Shown: in pieces, positions 36,696-41,011 of the stretch | Position numbering within the stretch: the first letter of the stretch is position 1 | Layout of the letters: each line of letters starts with the position of its first letter | Assembly (NCBI GenBank): GCA_035548175.1 | Contig: DASZTO010000096.1 | Span: forward strand, 9,454 to 73,453 | From: Phycisphaerae bacterium | Lineage (GTDB): Bacteria; Planctomycetota; Phycisphaerae; WQYP01 | DNA: 64,000 bases | Direction: 5' to 3' | Notes under the pieces: model-generated | Databases searched by the model: none | Told to the model about the DNA's origin: nothing | The model's input: only the letters and a program-made list of their open reading frames with translations | Program-made: the position numbers and the translations under genes

Positions 36696-36746
36696 TGCGG
36701 CCGGGGGGGCGGCCCTGGGGATTTTCGGGGAGCGGGAGCGTTTGGG

Positions 36747-38318
36747 TTGGCGGCTGGTCGCCGCTACAATGGTTGTCTTCCGCAGTCGAAACGAAGCCTT
36801 ATCCCCGAGGGCGCCTTGCTCAGCAAACTTTTGAATATTTTCCGCATCCCGGAGCTTCGCACGAAGCTCCTGTTCACGATCGCGCTGCTGTGCGTCTACC
36901 GCATCGGGTTTTTCATTCCGCTGCCGGGCATCGACGCCGTGCGGATGCGGGAACAGGCCTCGGCCGGGTCCGATTCAGCGCTGGGCGCGCTGGCGAACTA
37001 CATGTCGGTGTTTTCGGGCGGGAGTTTTTCGCAGTCCACGGTGTTCGGGCTGGGGATCATGCCCTATATCTCGGCATCGATCATCATCCAGCTCCTAGGC
37101 ACCGTCGTGCCCTCGATCGAAAAACTCAAGAAGGAGGGGGAGCCGGGGATTCGCAAGATCAACGATTGGACGCGGCAGCTGACCCTGATCGTCTGCCTGA
37201 TCCAATCAGCTCTGTACGTTCACACCCTCGCGACAACCGACAGCCAGTCGCTCCTGTTTCCGCAGGTCCGCGGCCATTTTTATACGCTCTTTGTCCTCTC
37301 CAATATCACCGTGCTCACGGCCGGGTCGATGTTCCTGATGTGGCTCGGCGAGCAGATCGACGCGTACGGCATCGGCAATGGCGTGTCGCTGATCATCACG
37401 GCCGGCATCATCGCGCGCATGCCCACCTCGCTGGAGTATCTGATCAGCAACGCGTCATTGCGGATGAACGGGCAGAACAGCGGCTCGCTGGGACCGGGCA
37501 AACTGGCGTTTCTCGCCTGCTGCTTCGTCTTCGTCGTGGCCGGGTCGATTCTGCTGACCGAGGCGCAGCGGCGCATACGCATCACCCAGGCCAAGCACAT
37601 GCGCGGCCGCCGGGTCTATGGCGGACAGAACCAGTATTTGCCGCTGCGCGTCAACCACGGCGGCGTGATGCCCATCATTTTCGCCTCCTCCCTCATGATC
37701 TTTCCGGTGATGGGCCTGGACTGGCTCGCCAAATCGCTGAGCCAGGGGTCGCAGCACACCTGGTGGGCCAACACGATCTTTTTCCTGCGCGACAATATGG
37801 CCAACGCCACCTACCTCTACGAAGTCATGTTCTGCGCGCTGATCTTCTTCTTTTCCTACTTCTGGAACACGGTGCAGTTCCAGCCCAAGGAGATGGCCGA
37901 TCAGCTTCGTGACTACGGGTCCTTCATCCCGGGCCTGCGTCCCGGCAAGCGCACCGCCGAATACCTCGAAAACGTCATGAGCCGCATCACCTACGTCGGC
38001 GCCGCCTTCCTCTGCGTGATCGCCGTGGTGCCCACCGTCATCACCATCGGCATGCTCGGCCAGAGCCCGCAGGCCTTCCAGGCGTCCCAGTTCTTCGGCG
38101 GCACCGGCCTGCTGATCGTGATCTCGGTCATGCTCGATTTCGTGAATCGCATCGAGGCGTCCCTCGTGATGCGAAACTACTCCGGCTTCTCCGATGGGGG
38201 CAAGGGCGGTTCGACCGCCAAGGTCAAGCGGCCCTCCGGCGGACCCGTGCGACGCGGACCCGTGCAGCCGCAGCCCGCCGCATATAACCCTGATCACCCG
38301 AAAGGGCTGCCTGCATGA
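36747..38318 (+). CDS. secY: Preprotein translocase subunit SecY (with C-terminal extension)
   Basis: 10-TM SecY pattern. The ORF track opens at TTG 36747. A TTG at 36816 (MLSKLLNIFRIPELRTKLLF...) is the more SecY-like start. Stop overlaps the adk ATG (ATGA). Confidence 0.9.
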   Translation: MAAGRRYNGCLPQSKRSLIPEGALLSKLLNIFRIPELRTKLLFTIALLCVYRIGFFIPLPGIDAVRMREQASAGSDSALGALANYMSVFSGGSFSQSTVFGLGIMPYISASIIIQLLGTVVPSIEKLKKEGEPGIRKINDWTRQLTLIVCLIQSALYVHTLATTDSQSLLFPQVRGHFYTLFVLSNITVLTAGSMFLMWLGEQIDAYGIGNGVSLIITAGIIARMPTSLEYLISNASLRMNGQNSGSLGPGKLAFLACCFVFVVAGSILLTEAQRRIRITQAKHMRGRRVYGGQNQYLPLRVNHGGVMPIIFASSLMIFPVMGLDWLAKSLSQGSQHTWWANTIFFLRDNMANATYLYEVMFCALIFFFSYFWNTVQFQPKEMADQLRDYGSFIPGLRPGKRTAEYLENVMSRITYVGAAFLCVIAVVPTVITIGMLGQSPQAFQASQFFGGTGLLIVISVMLDFVNRIEASLVMRNYSGFSDGGKGGSTAKVKRPSGGPVRRGPVQPQPAAYNPDHPKGLPA

Positions 38319-38968
38319 GAATTGCCCTCCTGGGGCCGCCCGGTTCCGGCAAGGGTACGCAGGCCCAGCGGATTTGCGAGAACTTCGGTCTGACCCACCT
38401 GGCGTCGGGCGACATCCTTCGGGCGGAGAAGGCCTCCGGTTCCGCGATGGGCAAGCAGATCCGCGACTTCATCGACAACGGATTGCTCGTTCCCGACGAC
38501 CTCATGATCGAGCTCATGAAGCAGAAAATCCTCGGGCTCAAAACCGGCTTCGTCCTCGACGGTTTTCCACGCACGCTGCCCCAGGCCCAATCGCTCAACC
38601 GCATGCTGTTCGATGTCGATCGGCCCCTGATGCTCGTGCTCAACTTCGTCGTCAATCCCAAGATCCTGGCGCGGCGCTTCGAAGGGCGGCGCATCTGCCC
38701 CGTCTGCCTCTCGGTCTATCACATTGATTCCAAGCCCCCCGTCGCCCCCGGAGTCTGCGATCTCGATGGGGCCGAGCTCATCATCCGGGAAGATGACAAG
38801 CCCGAGGTCGTGCAGAAGCGCATCGCCACCTACCAGGAGACGATGGCGCCGCTCATCGCCTACTATGCGCAGCTCGGCAACTTCAAGACCGTCGACACCA
38901 GCGCAACGGTCGACGAGGTCACCTCCCTGGTGCTCGAAAAAATTCGCCGGCACTTTGAGGATGAGTAG
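38315..38968 (+). CDS. adk: Adenylate kinase
   Basis: P-loop GPPGSGKGTQ and a zinc-binding lid (CPVC...C..D). Confidence 0.95.
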   Translation: MRIALLGPPGSGKGTQAQRICENFGLTHLASGDILRAEKASGSAMGKQIRDFIDNGLLVPDDLMIELMKQKILGLKTGFVLDGFPRTLPQAQSLNRMLFDVDRPLMLVLNFVVNPKILARRFEGRRICPVCLSVYHIDSKPPVAPGVCDLDGAELIIREDDKPEVVQKRIATYQETMAPLIAYYAQLGNFKTVDTSATVDEVTSLVLEKIRRHFEDE

Positions 38969-39038
38969 TTTCACAAAACCTGTAGCCAGTCACTCTGTCG
39001 CCGCTTGCCGGTGATGATCACGCGGTGGAAGGGGGGTT

Positions 39039-39833
39039 TTGAGATGTGGTATGAAGATCACTTTGAAATCGAAGCGGGACCTCGAGCTCATGCGGGCCGC
39101 CGGACGGGTCGTCTATCGCGCCCTGACGCGCGCCAAAGAGATGGCCGCCCCCGGCATGACCACCCTTGAACTGGACCGTATCGTGTACGATACTTATACG
39201 TCCGCCGGCGGTCAGGGCCTGTTCAAGTGGTATCCCACCTATGAGCCGGGCAAGGGCTTTCCGGGCAACACCTGCATCAGCGTGAACGACGAAGTCGTCC
39301 ATGGCATCCCTTCGGAGCGCGTGCTCAAGGATGGCGATATCGTGAGCGTCGATTGCGGAATTCGCCTCGGCGGATTCTGCGGAGATTCCGCCGTCACGCT
39401 GCTTATCGGAAACGTCTCCCCCGAAGCCAGACGCCTCTGCCAGGTCACCCAGGAAACCCTGGCCATCGCCGTCAAGGAAATTCGCCCCGGGCGGCGCTGG
39501 TCGGATGTGGCGTCGAAGATGCAGGAGCACGTGGAATCCAACGGAATGTCCTGCGTGCGGGAATTCGTCGGCCATGGCATCGGCGCCCGCATGCACGAAG
39601 ACCCTAAGGTGCCGAATTTCGTCTCGGGCGATTTCCTCAAGCGCGGTGACTTTTACCTGCAGCCCGGAATGACCCTCGCGGTCGAGCCCATGGTGATTCT
39701 GGGGAGCGCGGATGTGGTCGTGCTCGACGACCGCTGGACCGTGGTCACCAAGGATTCGACGCCCGCGGCGCACTATGAGCACACAATAGCGGTCACGGCA
39801 ACGGGCAGTGACGTGTTGACGGACGGACGATAA
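39039..39833 (+). CDS. map: Type I methionine aminopeptidase
   Basis: Conserved MAP metal ligands pattern (D..D..H..E..E). Start may be 39051 (MKITLKS). Confidence 0.93.
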
Positions 39834-39892
39834 AGTGTCAAGCCCCACGCGCACCCGCGGCAGCACGCGGGAGCGGCGGGCCATACGTAAGG

Positions 39893-40120
39893 ATGAACAT
39901 GCCGAAGGCAGATGCATTAAGGGTGGAAGCGACGGTGTTGGAATCGTTGCCGAACGCCATGTTTCGCGTGAAACTGGAGAATGGCAGCAACCACGTGCTG
40001 ATCGCGCACGTCTCGGGAAAGATGCGCATGAACTTCATCCGCATTTTGCCGGGCGACCGGGTGACCGTCGAGATGAGCCCCTACGACCTGGCCCGCGGCC
40101 GGATCGTGATGCGGAACTAG
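39893..40120 (+). CDS. infA: Translation initiation factor IF-1
   Basis: S1-like OB fold ([28 protein letters not shown]...). Confidence 0.93.
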
Positions 40121-40228
40121 ACGGAGGGGGGCGGCAGGGGGGGTGTATTGGGCGGATCGCGGCGTGTTCCCCCCGGGGGCGGGGGGGGGCGGTCGGGCGG
40201 CGGGCGGCGAAAGTTGGGGCGGCGGGCT

Positions 40229-40258
40229 TTTCATTTTGCGGAACAGTTGGTATAGTAA
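40229..40258 (+). promoter_or_regulatory. AT-rich island with promoter-like hexamers (TTCATT ...15 nt... TATAGT) upstream of rpmJ-rpsM-rpsK-rpoA-rplQ
   Basis: ttcattttgcggaacagttggtatagtaat stands out in GC-rich DNA. Preceded by G6/G7/C6-G5/G9 homopolymer hairpin tracts at 40126-40190. Confidence 0.25.
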
Positions 40259-40364
40259 TTGATTCGCCGCGGCGCACCGAGCTGCTGACGTTAAGAACAG
40301 GCCCAAACCTAATCGGTGTGCCCGGACGGCGGTATCGTCAGCAGATTGGAACAGGGAGCAAATC

Positions 40365-40481
40365 ATGAAAGTTCGGTCCTCCGTCAAGCGGATTTGTGAG
40401 CACTGCGTGATCGTGCGCCGGAACGGCGTATTGCGGGTGGTGTGCAAGGCCGATCCCCGACACAAACAGCGGCAGGGGTAA
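40365..40481 (+). CDS. rpmJ: 50S ribosomal protein L36
   Basis: [38 protein letters not shown] (38 aa, CxxC...C...H zinc ribbon). Below the ORF-track size cutoff. Confidence 0.9.
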
Positions 40482-40497
40482 AGCCCCCGCTCCAGTT

Positions 40498-40525
40498 GTC
40501 AGTGGCCAGGGGTCAGTGGTCAGTG
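40498..40525 (+). repeat. Variant heptamer repeat (GTCAGTG-type)
   Basis: gtcagtggccaggggtcagtggtcagtg between rpmJ and rpsM. Confidence 0.6.
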
Positions 40526-40624
40526 ACGGGCGCGAACACTGGCCTGAACAGACACGTTTACAATTCTGGCTGCGTCGCTCGATGCCGAAGGCTTAGACGA
40601 TAGCGGTCGCCGCAAGGAGTCAGC

Positions 40625-41011
40625 ATGCCCCGTATCGCCGGTATCGACATCCCCCTGGATAAGCAGATTCGCATCAGTCTCCGCTACGTCTATGGCATTG
40701 GCCCCGTCAATGCCATGGCCATCCTCAAGGAGGCCAACATCGACCCCATGAAGCGGGCGCGCGAACTTAACGAAGACGAAGTCGGCCGCATCGTCGGAAT
40801 CATCGACCGCTCCTATCCCGTCGAAGGCGCCCTCCGCCGGCAGATTCAGCAGAACATTCAACGCCTCAAGGACATTCAAAGCTATCGCGGGTCCCGCCAT
40901 CGCCGCAGCCTCCCGGTCCGCGGCCAGCGCACCCGCTCCAACGCGCGCACCCGCAAGGGGCCCCGCAAAACCGTCGCCGGCAAGAAGGGCGTCAAAGAGC
41001 TGCATGGATAA
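40625..41011 (+). CDS. rpsM: 30S ribosomal protein S13
   Basis: [26 protein letters not shown]... conserved S13. Confidence 0.95.

What the first reader, a model, noticed from the sequence alone, without database searches (positions are those of the whole stretch)
36700..40700. Switch between two opposite synonymous-codon usage patterns (G/T-ending versus C/A-ending), including switches inside secY and map
Genes fall into two extreme classes.
- G-ending class: glgB, the TA genes, smpB, the MetE-like gene, floA, both lnt genes, the PEP-CTERM gene and rplC through rplO (plus strand), and blaR1, mnmG, polA, the DLH gene and trpE (minus strand). These strongly prefer GGG, GCG, CCG, ACG, GTG, CTG, AAG and GAG. 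In a 30-codon glgB sample I counted 17 G-ending versus 6 C-ending codons.
- C-ending class: rpsM, rpsK, rpoA, rplQ, pgk, rpe, fabI, sua5, alr and the signalling genes (plus strand), and prmC, the HEAT gene and the 18884 gene (minus strand). These use GGC, GCC, CCC, ACC, GTC and CTC almost exclusively, and even prefer AAA/GAA over AAG/GAG.
This gives a top strand that is G/T-rich up to about 37 kb and C/A-rich from 40.6 kb on, whatever the gene orientation. It behaves like a very strong replication-strand skew with convergent (terminus-like) polarity, located inside the r-protein cluster. The 37-40.5 kb boundary zone is a mosaic. The secY 5' half is G-type and its 3' half is C-type. adk is C-type. 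The map 5' half is C-type and its 3' half is G-type. infA and rpmJ are G-type. Then rpsM is abruptly C-type. Switches inside genes cannot come from inversions. They suggest recombination or gene-conversion patches between lineages with opposite strand history, or a chimeric assembly. The 16-25 kb genes are intermediate.
Basis: seen in the sequence. Interest (0 to 1): 0.72.

Follow-up and report, generated by a model that had tools for sequence, protein, structure and literature searches.

The report
Strand-skew switch inside ribosomal gene cluster
In this uncultured Phycisphaerae (Planctomycetota) genome, which DNA strand a gene lies on almost fully decides whether its synonymous codons end in G or C, and this bias fades smoothly from one extreme to the other over about 25 kb centred on secY, as expected where the two replication forks meet, not from recombination patches or a misassembly.

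Summary
At fourfold-degenerate sites the top strand has G:C of about 13-33:1 on the left (glgB 323:25) and about 1:20 on the right (histidine kinase 22:447), whatever the gene orientation. Codon usage on the two sides is mirror-identical (RSCU r = 0.97).

The "mosaic with switches inside secY and map" is not supported. A smooth monotonic decline of P(G), from 0.84 at 25-30 kb through 0.5 at about 37 kb to 0.06 beyond 51.6 kb, fits far better than a step and as well as any staircase. secY, adk and map lie on the trend, and no patch in 36.7-40.7 kb passes a window-wide scan.

Other assemblies are 99.96-100% identical to the window, including across the zone. The protein-identity profile to relatives shows no discontinuity. 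Distant relatives (L014, L086/L170, weaker L167/L169) show the same plus-to-minus gradient along the same cluster.

Best reading (confidence 0.6): a very strong replication-strand mutational bias, with a diffuse fork-convergence (terminus-type) zone lying in the S10-spc-alpha cluster. No dif-like site was found. Whole-replicon skew or coverage data are needed to prove a terminus.

The parts
1..12300 (.). Left plateau. The top strand is G/T-rich. It holds glgB, TA genes, smpB, a MetE-like gene, prmC (-), floA and two lnt-like genes.
   Evidence: Top-strand GC4 skew is +0.58 to +0.86, including the - strand gene prmC. The plateau continues at +0.94 in four - strand genes in the 4.9 kb left of the window on Logan contig L171. 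GC skew per kb is +0.18 to +0.40.
12300..25050 (.). Atypical block that interrupts the left plateau. It holds blaR1 (-), trpD, unknown ORFs, a HEAT-repeat gene (-), degT, a xylose-isomerase-like TIM-barrel gene and rluD.
   Evidence: Top-strand GC4 skew is -0.53 in blaR1, -0.13 to -0.23 in trpD, degT, the TIM-barrel gene and rluD, and +0.36 in the HEAT gene. There are no flanking repeats and no tRNA genes.
25100..51640 (.). Gradient zone. Top-strand G preference at fourfold sites declines monotonically across the S10-spc-alpha cluster and the downstream + strand genes (pgk, rpe, fabI, sua5, alr, a 2-hydroxyacid dehydrogenase) and mnmG (-).
   Evidence: P(G) at fourfold G/C sites is 0.84, 0.73, 0.54, 0.32 and 0.19 in successive segments, with breaks at 29.6, 34.7, 37.6 and 45.2 kb, and drops to 0.06 after 51.6 kb. 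The smooth model has the best BIC. Intergenic spacers follow the same trend.
36144..38318 (+). rplO and secY: the zero crossing of the strand skew.
   Evidence: A linear logit trend over the cluster crosses zero at 36.9 kb. The best single break is at 37,574. G:C at fourfold sites is 41:43 in rplO and 122:144 in secY.
   Evidence: G:C at fourfold sites is 37:69 in adk, 49:80 in map, 20:13 in infA and 10:7 in rpmJ. Deviations from the smooth trend are z = -1.9, -0.7, +2.6 and +1.8. No patch here is significant family-wise.
40121..40226 (+). A lineage-specific, extremely G-rich spacer just after infA, with G6-G9 runs.
   Evidence: Sequence. It is the only 100-nt window with G of at least 0.55 to the right of 26 kb. 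It is absent from the same spacer in relatives. NCBI contig L002 ends inside it, at 40,189.
40277..40364 (+). Conserved structured leader upstream of rpmJ-rpsM (alpha operon).
   Evidence: The leader has 13 predicted pairs, 2 with compensatory changes, across 7 genomes. No Rfam family reaches its gathering score anywhere in the window.
40625..43218 (+). rpsM, rpsK, rpoA and rplQ: clearly C-type. rpsM is the strongest negative outlier.
   Evidence: GC4 skew is -0.72, -0.52, -0.45 and -0.32. rpsM has z = -3.6 against the trend. rpsM, rpsK and rpoA are also the most C-biased cluster genes in relatives with flat profiles (mean logit effect -0.20 to -0.34).
51640..64000 (.). Right plateau. The top strand is C/A-rich. 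It holds polA, DLH and trpE (all -), then a response regulator, an HDOD histidine kinase, a second response regulator and a family-4 glycosyltransferase (all +).
   Evidence: Top-strand GC4 skew is -0.79 to -0.92 on both gene orientations. It continues at -0.90 in the next gene beyond the window on L173.

Best explanation
The window comes from a Phycisphaerae genome under an exceptionally strong replication-associated strand mutational bias. One strand accumulates G (and T over A) at nearly every unconstrained site.

The window contains the place where the direction of that bias reverses with plus-to-minus (convergent) polarity. This is the region where the two replication forks meet.

The reversal is not a point. 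It is a zone about 25 kb wide (roughly 25-52 kb), centred on rplO/secY at about 37 kb. Within it, each site has, on average over cell cycles or evolutionary time, been copied partly as leading and partly as lagging strand. That gives intermediate codon usage.

The apparent intragenic switches in secY and map are the gradient itself, plus sampling noise in 50-codon samples, plus small gene-specific codon preferences (rpsM, rpsK and rpoA prefer C; map and infA less so).

**Shown:**
- The bias follows the strand, not the gene.
- The two sides are mirror images.
- The decline is monotonic and smooth.
- The assembly is contiguous.
- The gradient recurs in relatives.

**Inferred:**
- The cause is replication.
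- G-rich means leading strand.
- The zone is a terminus without a precise fork trap or dif stop.
For: **The bias is strand-level and mutational in character.**
- Genes on either strand share the top-strand sign within each domain.
- G>C goes with T>A on the same strand.
- The effect is strongest at fourfold sites (up to about +-0.95) and also appears in spacers.

**The two sides belong to one genome.** RSCU of left + genes against right - genes gives r = 0.969. Right + genes against the left - gene also give 0.969. Cross-class r is about -0.1.

**The polarity is plus-to-minus**.

**The transition is gradual and monotonic.** The negative log-likelihood is 2580.7 (smooth) against 2759.6 (step). 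BIC is 5203.4 (quadratic) against 5209.2 (best staircase, which is monotonic).

**The cluster has the same gene order as in relatives; only secY-rpmJ interval content varies.** So no inversion or translocation breakpoint can lie inside it.

**The same gradient appears across the same cluster in relatives.**
- L014: +0.46 to -0.78, with strand-level flanks.
- L086/L170: about 0 to -0.9.
- L167, L168 and L169: weaker.

**Recently acquired DNA lacks the skew.** The restriction-modification genes on L173 have skew -0.12 to -0.28. This fits a slow mutational process.

**Literature.**
- Termination mode shapes the skew shift, and species lacking fork traps are expected to show rounded (U-shaped) shifts (PMC3317982).
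- dif could not be predicted in Planctomycetes (PMC3025954).
Against: - No replication landmark was found. There is no dif-like motif above chance (7 matches against 4.7 expected, none near the switch). No Tus or RTP search was possible.
- The origin and the rest of the replicon are not available, so "terminus" rests on skew polarity alone.
- r-protein operons are normally co-directional with replication and origin-proximal (PMC10331603). On this reading rpsM-rplQ here are head-on, and so is the whole cluster in the closest relative with DNA, L083 (GC4 skew -0.40 to -0.89).
- The left domain is interrupted by the 12.3-25 kb block, which shows the region has also been rearranged or invaded.
- Residual gene-to-gene heterogeneity around the smooth curve is real (likelihood-ratio test p = 1.2e-7).
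Confidence: 0.6

Rival explanations
1. Historical rearrangement with incomplete amelioration. The fork-meeting point, or segments of DNA, moved relative to the origin in steps, through large indels in one replichore or through nested events outside the cluster. DNA between about 30 and 52 kb changed strand status at different times and is still drifting toward its new equilibrium. The present terminus need not lie at 37 kb.
For: - A six-step monotonic staircase fits almost as well as a smooth curve (BIC 5209.2 against 5203.4).
- The closest relative with DNA, L083, has the entire cluster on the C-rich strand, so the strand status of S10-spc has changed within this clade.
- The 12.3-25 kb block and the unskewed restriction-modification island on L173 show that the neighbourhood is plastic.
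- The infA-rpmJ spacer is an insertion site in L083.
Against: - The cluster keeps the same gene order as in relatives, so no breakpoint lies inside it.
- A staircase would need five ordered events whose boundaries fall inside an intact operon array.
- A gradient of the same polarity recurs across the cluster in L014, L086/L170, L167 and L169, which independent historical accidents would not predict.
- This rival overlaps the best explanation, because a time-averaged moving terminus is also a diffuse terminus.
Confidence: 0.2
2. One reading: a mosaic made by homologous recombination or gene conversion with a lineage of opposite strand history, or a chimeric metagenome assembly joined within the conserved r-protein cluster.
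For: - Relatives with opposite skew in the S10-spc genes do exist (L083 strongly C-type, L085 weakly G-type), so donors are conceivable.
- infA+rpmJ against rpsM differ sharply (30:20 against 9:55, Fisher p = 3.6e-7).
- Contig ends of other assemblies fall at 37,332 and 40,189.
Against: - Other assemblies are 100% identical to the window across 33,249-64,000, and their overlap (37,332-40,189) spans both contig ends.
- The break at 40,189 lies inside a G9-containing tract. I infer that such a tract is hard to sequence and assemble.
- The protein-identity profile to relatives shows no discontinuity along the cluster.
- Fourfold-site identity to L083 in the alpha operon is 0.60-0.68, about what I estimate by hand for two C-rich sequences, so there was no recent transfer.
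- Mirror-identical RSCU on the two sides would not be expected from two different organisms.
- No patch in 36.7-40.7 kb is significant after scanning or chosen by BIC.
- Intragenic splits are as strong outside the zone.
Confidence: 0.04
3. The switch is a replication origin, in a lineage where the sign convention is reversed (the leading strand is C-rich). The C-type r-protein genes of L083, L167 and the right half of this window would then be co-directional with replication, as in other bacteria.
For: - It would restore the near-universal co-orientation of r-protein operons with replication (PMC10331603) for L083, L167 and L168.
- mnmG (gidA), often origin-proximal in other bacteria (my own knowledge), lies 10-13 kb from the switch.
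Against: - The G-rich strand is also T>A at twofold sites, the classical leading-strand signature.
- An origin fires at a fixed site and should give a sharp step, yet the transition spans about 25 kb.
- DnaA boxes are not enriched (5 matches against 3.9 expected, none in the spacers of the zone).
- No dnaA or dnaN was found among the genes annotated in the window or its extensions.
- No bacterium with a C-rich leading strand is known to me.
Confidence: 0.05

Closest known systems
Replication-strand compositional asymmetry (GC skew) with a shift point at the terminus
   Same: - G>C and T>A occur on one strand irrespective of gene orientation.
- The effect is strongest at synonymous sites.
- The two replichore-like sides are mirror images.
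- The polarity is plus-to-minus.
   Different: - The magnitude is at or near the top of the surveyed range. Per-kb skew reaches +-0.40-0.44, and a RefSeq survey reports up to about +-0.4 (10.1101/808410). Fourfold-site skew reaches about +-0.95.
- The shift is a graded zone of about 25 kb rather than a step.
- It lies inside the S10-spc-alpha cluster.
- No dif was found.
Genomes whose codon usage is dominated by strand-specific mutational bias (Lawsonia intracellularis, PMC2671203 abstract; Borrelia burgdorferi and Treponema pallidum from my own knowledge)
   Same: The main axis of synonymous codon variation separates genes by replication strand, not by expression level.
   Different: - Those are mostly small, AT-rich, host-associated genomes with much weaker third-position skews (from my own knowledge).
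- Here the genome is 63% GC, from an uncultured planctomycete recovered from metagenomes.
- Its fourfold sites are almost entirely G or almost entirely C.
Fork-collision (trap-less) termination, as modelled by Kono, Arakawa and Tomita 2012 (PMC3317982)
   Same: A rounded rather than sharp skew transition is the predicted footprint when forks fuse at variable positions.
   Different: - That work inferred the shape from weak skews averaged over large windows.
- Here the skew is strong enough to resolve the profile gene by gene.
- Whether this organism lacks a trap was not tested.

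Membership tests
Replication-associated strand asymmetry (leading/lagging GC skew) | The skew follows the DNA strand, not the coding strand. | tested here: met
   In the left domain, - strand genes (prmC and four genes on L171) have the same top-strand sign (+0.86 to +0.95) as + strand neighbours. In the right domain, mnmG, polA, DLH and trpE (all -) match their + strand neighbours (-0.58 to -0.92).
Replication-associated strand asymmetry (leading/lagging GC skew) | G>C is accompanied by T>A on the same strand, and the effect is strongest at unconstrained sites. 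| tested here: met
   Twofold codons: T-ending codons are 30-55% and A-ending 5-20% on most G-type coding strands, against 16-46% and 43-68% on C-type + strand genes right of 41 kb. First- and second-position skews are far weaker than third-position skew. Spacers follow the trend.
Replication-associated strand asymmetry (leading/lagging GC skew) | The two sides are mirror images of one mutational regime. | tested here: met
   RSCU r = 0.969 for both strand-matched comparisons and about -0.1 for mismatched ones.
Replication terminus (skew shift point) | Plus-to-minus polarity of top-strand skew. | tested here: met
Replication terminus (skew shift point) | A dif/XerCD site or Ter/RTP fork-trap sites at the shift point. 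| tested here: not met
   The core dif pattern with 2 mismatches gives 7 matches against 4.7 expected, none in a spacer near the switch. No AT-rich 28-mer candidate was found in the zone. Planctomycete dif is unknown (PMC3025954), so this is a weak negative.
Replication terminus (skew shift point) | Position about opposite oriC on the replicon; coverage minimum in growing cells. | not testable with these tools
   Only 64 kb plus about 10 kb of extensions are available. There is no read data.
Replication terminus (skew shift point) | A sharp step at the shift point, as in genomes with a defined stop. | tested here: not met
   The step model is much worse than the smooth model (negative log-likelihood 2759.6 against 2580.7; BIC values).
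Replication origin | Minus-to-plus polarity, a DnaA-box cluster, and dnaA/dnaN nearby. | tested here: not met
   The polarity is the opposite. DnaA boxes are at chance level. No dnaA or dnaN was found among the annotated genes.
Assembly chimera | Other assemblies disagree, or relatedness changes at the junction. | tested here: not met
   Logan and NCBI contigs are 99.96-100% identical to the window, and those across the zone are 100% identical. The identity profile to relatives shows no discontinuity. Whether the assemblies used independent reads is unknown.
Recombination / gene-conversion mosaic | Discrete patches deviate significantly from their surroundings, with discordant similarity to a donor lineage. 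| tested here: not met
   The scan statistic finds nothing in 36.7-40.7 kb. BIC does not select the 39.7-40.6 kb patch. Synonymous identity to L083 is about what I estimate for two C-rich sequences.

The most novel reading that the evidence does not exclude
The S10-spc-alpha ribosomal-protein array may itself position replication termination in this clade. The lineage has no recognisable dif or fork trap. Under this reading, the fork arriving from the right meets about 25 kb of co-oriented genes, including the ribosomal-protein and rpoA operons, head-on and is slowed. Forks would then fuse at variable points within the array.

The extreme mutational bias would then record the fork-fusion probability distribution gene by gene.

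This would explain why a gradient of the same polarity sits on the same cluster in genomes as far apart as 54% SecY identity (window, L014, L086/L170, L167, L169), even though the flanking genes differ.
Probability: 0.12. Interest if true: 0.75.

Novelty: new member of a known kind. Interest (0 to 1): 0.45.

Why it matters
- **Codon usage.** Codon usage in this lineage cannot be read as a signal of expression level or horizontal transfer without first correcting for strand. Fourfold sites are up to 97% G or 97% C depending only on position relative to the switch.
- **Replication biology.** The skew is strong enough to act as a natural high-resolution record of replication direction. The graded zone of about 25 kb suggests that forks fuse over a broad region rather than at a fixed site. 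It also places highly expressed ribosomal-protein genes (here rpsM-rplQ; the whole cluster in relative L083) on what should be the lagging strand, against the usual rule. If coverage data confirm this, the clade would be a useful natural system for studying trap-less termination and head-on replication-transcription conflict.

Tried and rejected
**Searches that led nowhere**
- dif-like motif: chance level. The AT-rich 28-mer scan gave no candidate in the zone.
- DnaA boxes: chance level.
- tRNA genes as island markers: none.
- Direct or inverted repeats flanking the 12.3-25 kb block: only short chance matches.
- Rfam at gathering score over the whole window: no matches.
- Metagenome-contig scan with SecY: only distant relatives (54% identity or less), not useful.
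- The closest relative (P0001, 92% SecY identity) has no retrievable DNA.
- Literature searches found no report of extreme skew in Phycisphaerae.

**Explanations considered and rejected**
- Transcription-driven skew was rejected because opposite-strand neighbours share the top-strand sign.
- Gene-specific codon preference as the whole explanation was rejected. Effects in relatives with flat profiles are only about +-0.3 logit, correlate only weakly with the residuals (r = 0.40, p = 0.05), and reduce chi-square only from 51.8 to 48.4.

**My own errors, corrected**
- In one search the sua5 "split" (p = 0.0005) came from a wrong start that overlapped fabI.
- In one search trpE was put out of frame. 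fixes this.
- The 57.2-58.1 kb outlier probably comes from over-extended ORF ends of trpE and the response regulator. It no longer appears as a separate segment after trimming.

Full report
**What the window is.** SecY and the ribosomal proteins place it in Phycisphaerae (Planctomycetota). The best named genome hits are Phycisphaerales MAGs at 54-58% SecY identity. Unnamed closer relatives exist at 61-92%. GC content is about 63%.

The gene map comes from Pfam scans and from called genes on identical contigs:
- 0-12.3 kb: glgB, TA genes, smpB, a MetE-like gene, prmC (-), floA and two lnt-like genes.
- 12.3-25 kb: blaR1 (-), trpD, unknown ORFs, a HEAT-repeat gene (-), degT, a TIM-barrel gene and rluD.
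- 25.1-25.9 kb: an unknown + strand ORF (25,103-25,924).
- 26.4-43.2 kb: a collinear S10-spc-alpha cluster, rplC through rplO, then secY, adk, map, infA, rpmJ, rpsM, rpsK, rpoA and rplQ, all on the + strand.
- Next: a dksA-like gene, pgk, rpe, fabI, sua5, alr and a 2-hydroxyacid dehydrogenase (all +).
- Next: mnmG, polA, DLH and trpE (all -).
- Last: a response regulator, an HDOD histidine kinase, a second response regulator and a family-4 glycosyltransferase (all +).

**Check of the observation.**
- Per-kb GC skew runs from +0.40 at the left end to -0.44 at 55-56 kb.
- At fourfold-degenerate sites the asymmetry is extraordinary. G:C is 323:25 in glgB and 22:447 in the kinase gene. Genes on the opposite coding strand show the mirror image: prmC 12:164, polA 424:49 and DLH 138:6.
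- Logan contigs extend the window on both sides. Four - strand genes to the left have coding G:C of 10:334, 2:60, 11:333 and 5:184 (top-strand skew +0.94 to +0.95). The next gene to the right has -0.90.

**The two sides belong to one genome.** RSCU of left + genes against right - genes gives r = 0.969. Right + genes against the left - gene prmC give 0.969. Mismatched comparisons give about -0.1. This is what two replichores of one chromosome look like.

**The boundary is a gradient, not a mosaic.** I took all fourfold G/C sites from 25 to 64 kb, expressed on the top strand.
- A single step (best position 37.6 kb) has negative log-likelihood 2759.6, against 2580.7 for a smooth curve.
- With corrected frames, a 3-parameter quadratic logit has the best BIC (5203.4).
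- The best staircase (BIC 5209.2) is monotonic, with P(G) of 0.84, 0.73, 0.54, 0.32, 0.19 and 0.06 and breaks at 29.6, 34.7, 37.6, 45.2 and 51.6 kb.
- The "G-type patch" at 39.7-40.6 kb enters only at nine segments, with a worse BIC of 5215.4.
- secY, adk and map sit at z = -0.6, -1.9 and -0.7 from the smooth trend. The outliers are rpsM (-3.6), mnmG (+3.6), rpsH (+2.7) and infA (+2.6).
- The split within secY (57% to 33% G, p = 0.0045) is in the direction of the gradient. The split in map (p = 0.039) does not survive testing 26 genes. Equal or stronger splits occur in rplC, rplE, rplF and rpe.
- A window-wide scan with a parametric bootstrap finds no significant segment in 36.7-40.7 kb. The nearest, rpmJ to rpsK, has z = 4.08 against a null 95th percentile of 4.72 (p = 0.27).
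- Intergenic spacers show the same graded decline.
- The one sharp local contrast, infA+rpmJ (30:20) against rpsM (9:55), is post hoc. It is partly a gene effect, because rpsM, rpsK and rpoA are also the most C-biased cluster genes in relatives with flat profiles. That effect explains little overall (r = 0.40; chi-square 51.8 to 48.4).

**Chimerism and recombination.**
- Logan contigs from SRR12170512 and contigs of NCBI MAG GCA_964541745.1 are 100% identical to the window over 33,249-40,189, 37,332-48,968, 57,049-64,000, 58,340-62,301 and 1-14,410. A contig from a second run is 99.96% identical. I cannot tell whether all of these derive from independent reads.
- The NCBI contig ends at 40,189, inside a G-rich tract of about 105 nt with G6-G9 runs. 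I infer that this tract is a likely cause of the contig break.
- The protein-identity profile to relatives shows no discontinuity along the cluster. L083 is closest or within a few points for most genes.
- At conserved fourfold codons, third-base identity to L083 is 0.17-0.61 from S10 through infA and 0.60-0.68 in the alpha operon. I estimate that the latter is about chance level for two C-rich sequences, so nothing was recently imported.
- The cluster keeps the same gene order in every relative examined; only the content between secY and rpmJ varies. This excludes an inversion or translocation breakpoint inside it.

**Relatives.** Strong skew is a property of part of this clade.

| Locus | SecY identity to window | Top-strand GC4 or GC3 skew along the cluster |
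|---|---|---|
| L083/L084 | 76% | Whole cluster -0.40 to -0.89, including a - strand gene; no switch |
| L086/L170 | 63% | About 0 in S10 genes to -0.7 at L15, then -0.8 to -0.9 in flanks of both orientations |
| L014 | 53-54% | +0.3 to +0.46 (rplD-rplE) through about 0 to -0.65 to -0.78 (alpha operon), then -0.38 to -0.72 in flanks of both orientations |
| L167, L168, L169 | 62-65% | Weaker declines in the same direction |
| L085, L003, L008 and others | 54-66% | Weak skew, no switch |

No relative shows a rise along the cluster. A terminus always reads plus-to-minus, whatever the orientation of the locus. So the recurrent pattern suggests that the cluster lies at or next to the fork-convergence region in this clade.

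**Mechanism proposed.**
- The mutational bias combines strong GC pressure at synonymous sites with strand-specific loss of C. This inference rests on three ratios on the G-rich strand: C:T is about 1:1, G:A is about 4-15:1, and G:C is 13-33:1. It drives unconstrained sites to G on the leading-strand sequence.
- Where forks fuse at variable positions, or where the fusion point has wandered over time, each site experiences a mixture of the two regimes. A simple two-state mixture model (my own hand calculation, using a 13:1 plateau ratio) converts the observed logits into a cumulative fusion-point distribution. About half of its mass falls between 33 and 42 kb, with tails reaching about 25 and 52 kb.
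- Kono et al. 2012 argue that termination mode shapes the skew shift, and that trap-less species should show rounded transitions. dif could not be predicted in Planctomycetes, and I found none here.

**What argues against this reading.**
- The terminus assignment rests on polarity alone.
- r-protein genes are normally co-directional with replication and origin-proximal (PMC10331603). On the standard convention rpsM-rplQ here, and the whole cluster in L083, would be head-on.
- A reversed convention (an origin at the switch) would fix that. It conflicts with the G+T signature of the G-rich strand, with the breadth of the transition, and with the absence of DnaA boxes and of dnaA among the annotated genes.

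**Novelty and score.** The kind of phenomenon is well known. This instance is notable for three things:
- Its magnitude, at the upper end of the roughly +-0.4 range reported for RefSeq genomes.
- Its graded profile.
- Its location inside the main ribosomal-protein cluster, which recurs in relatives.

I found no report of this for Phycisphaerae. I rate interest at 0.45.

Noticed in passing
window 40121-40226: A G-rich tract of about 105 nt (G fraction 0.62, runs of G6-G9, capable of forming G-quadruplexes) lies directly after the infA stop codon. It is absent from the same spacer in all relatives examined. NCBI contig L002 ends inside it.
   Followed up: partly
window 40277-40364 (also L083:17481-17583, L086:13456-13558, L170, L167, L168, L169): A conserved leader lies upstream of rpmJ-rpsM. 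A long-range stem (CCGAGCUGCUGAC ... GUCAGCAGAUUGG) encloses an invariant ACCCnAACCUAAUCGG loop, immediately 5' of the Shine-Dalgarno sequence. It has 13 predicted pairs, 2 with compensatory changes, and no Rfam family reaches its gathering score. It is a candidate autoregulatory r-protein leader for the alpha operon.
   Followed up: partly
L083 13414-17371 (and L084): In the closest relative with DNA, two genes are inserted between infA and rpmJ: a TIR/Sel1-repeat gene on the - strand and a 655-aa unknown. The spc/alpha junction is therefore an insertion hot spot in this clade.
   Followed up: no
window 12300-25050: A 13-kb block breaks the G-rich left domain. blaR1 (-) has the opposite strand signature (-0.53). 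trpD, degT, the TIM-barrel gene and rluD are weakly C-type, and the HEAT gene (-) is +0.36, which amounts to almost no strand skew. It is probably relocated or recently acquired DNA. No flanking repeats or tRNA genes were found.
   Followed up: partly
L173 8992-11825 (about 2-5 kb beyond the right end of the window): A restriction-modification island (C5 DNA methylase, Eco29kI-type endonuclease, Vsr, preceded by an HSDR_N-domain gene) sits next to genes with skew -0.9. The methylase, endonuclease and Vsr genes have skew of only -0.12 to -0.28, while the HSDR_N gene is -0.71. The island looks like recent horizontal acquisition and serves as an internal control showing that new DNA lacks the skew.
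   Followed up: partly
window 18523-18660: Tandem 9-nt repeats (AACCCGAAC-like, coding Asn-Pro-Asn-type repeats) lie in an unannotated ORF within the atypical block.
   Followed up: no
window 26415 (upstream of rplC): Here the r-protein cluster starts at rplC, preceded by an unknown ORF (25103-25924) and a 490-nt spacer. rpsJ (S10) and tuf are not adjacent to it.
   Followed up: no
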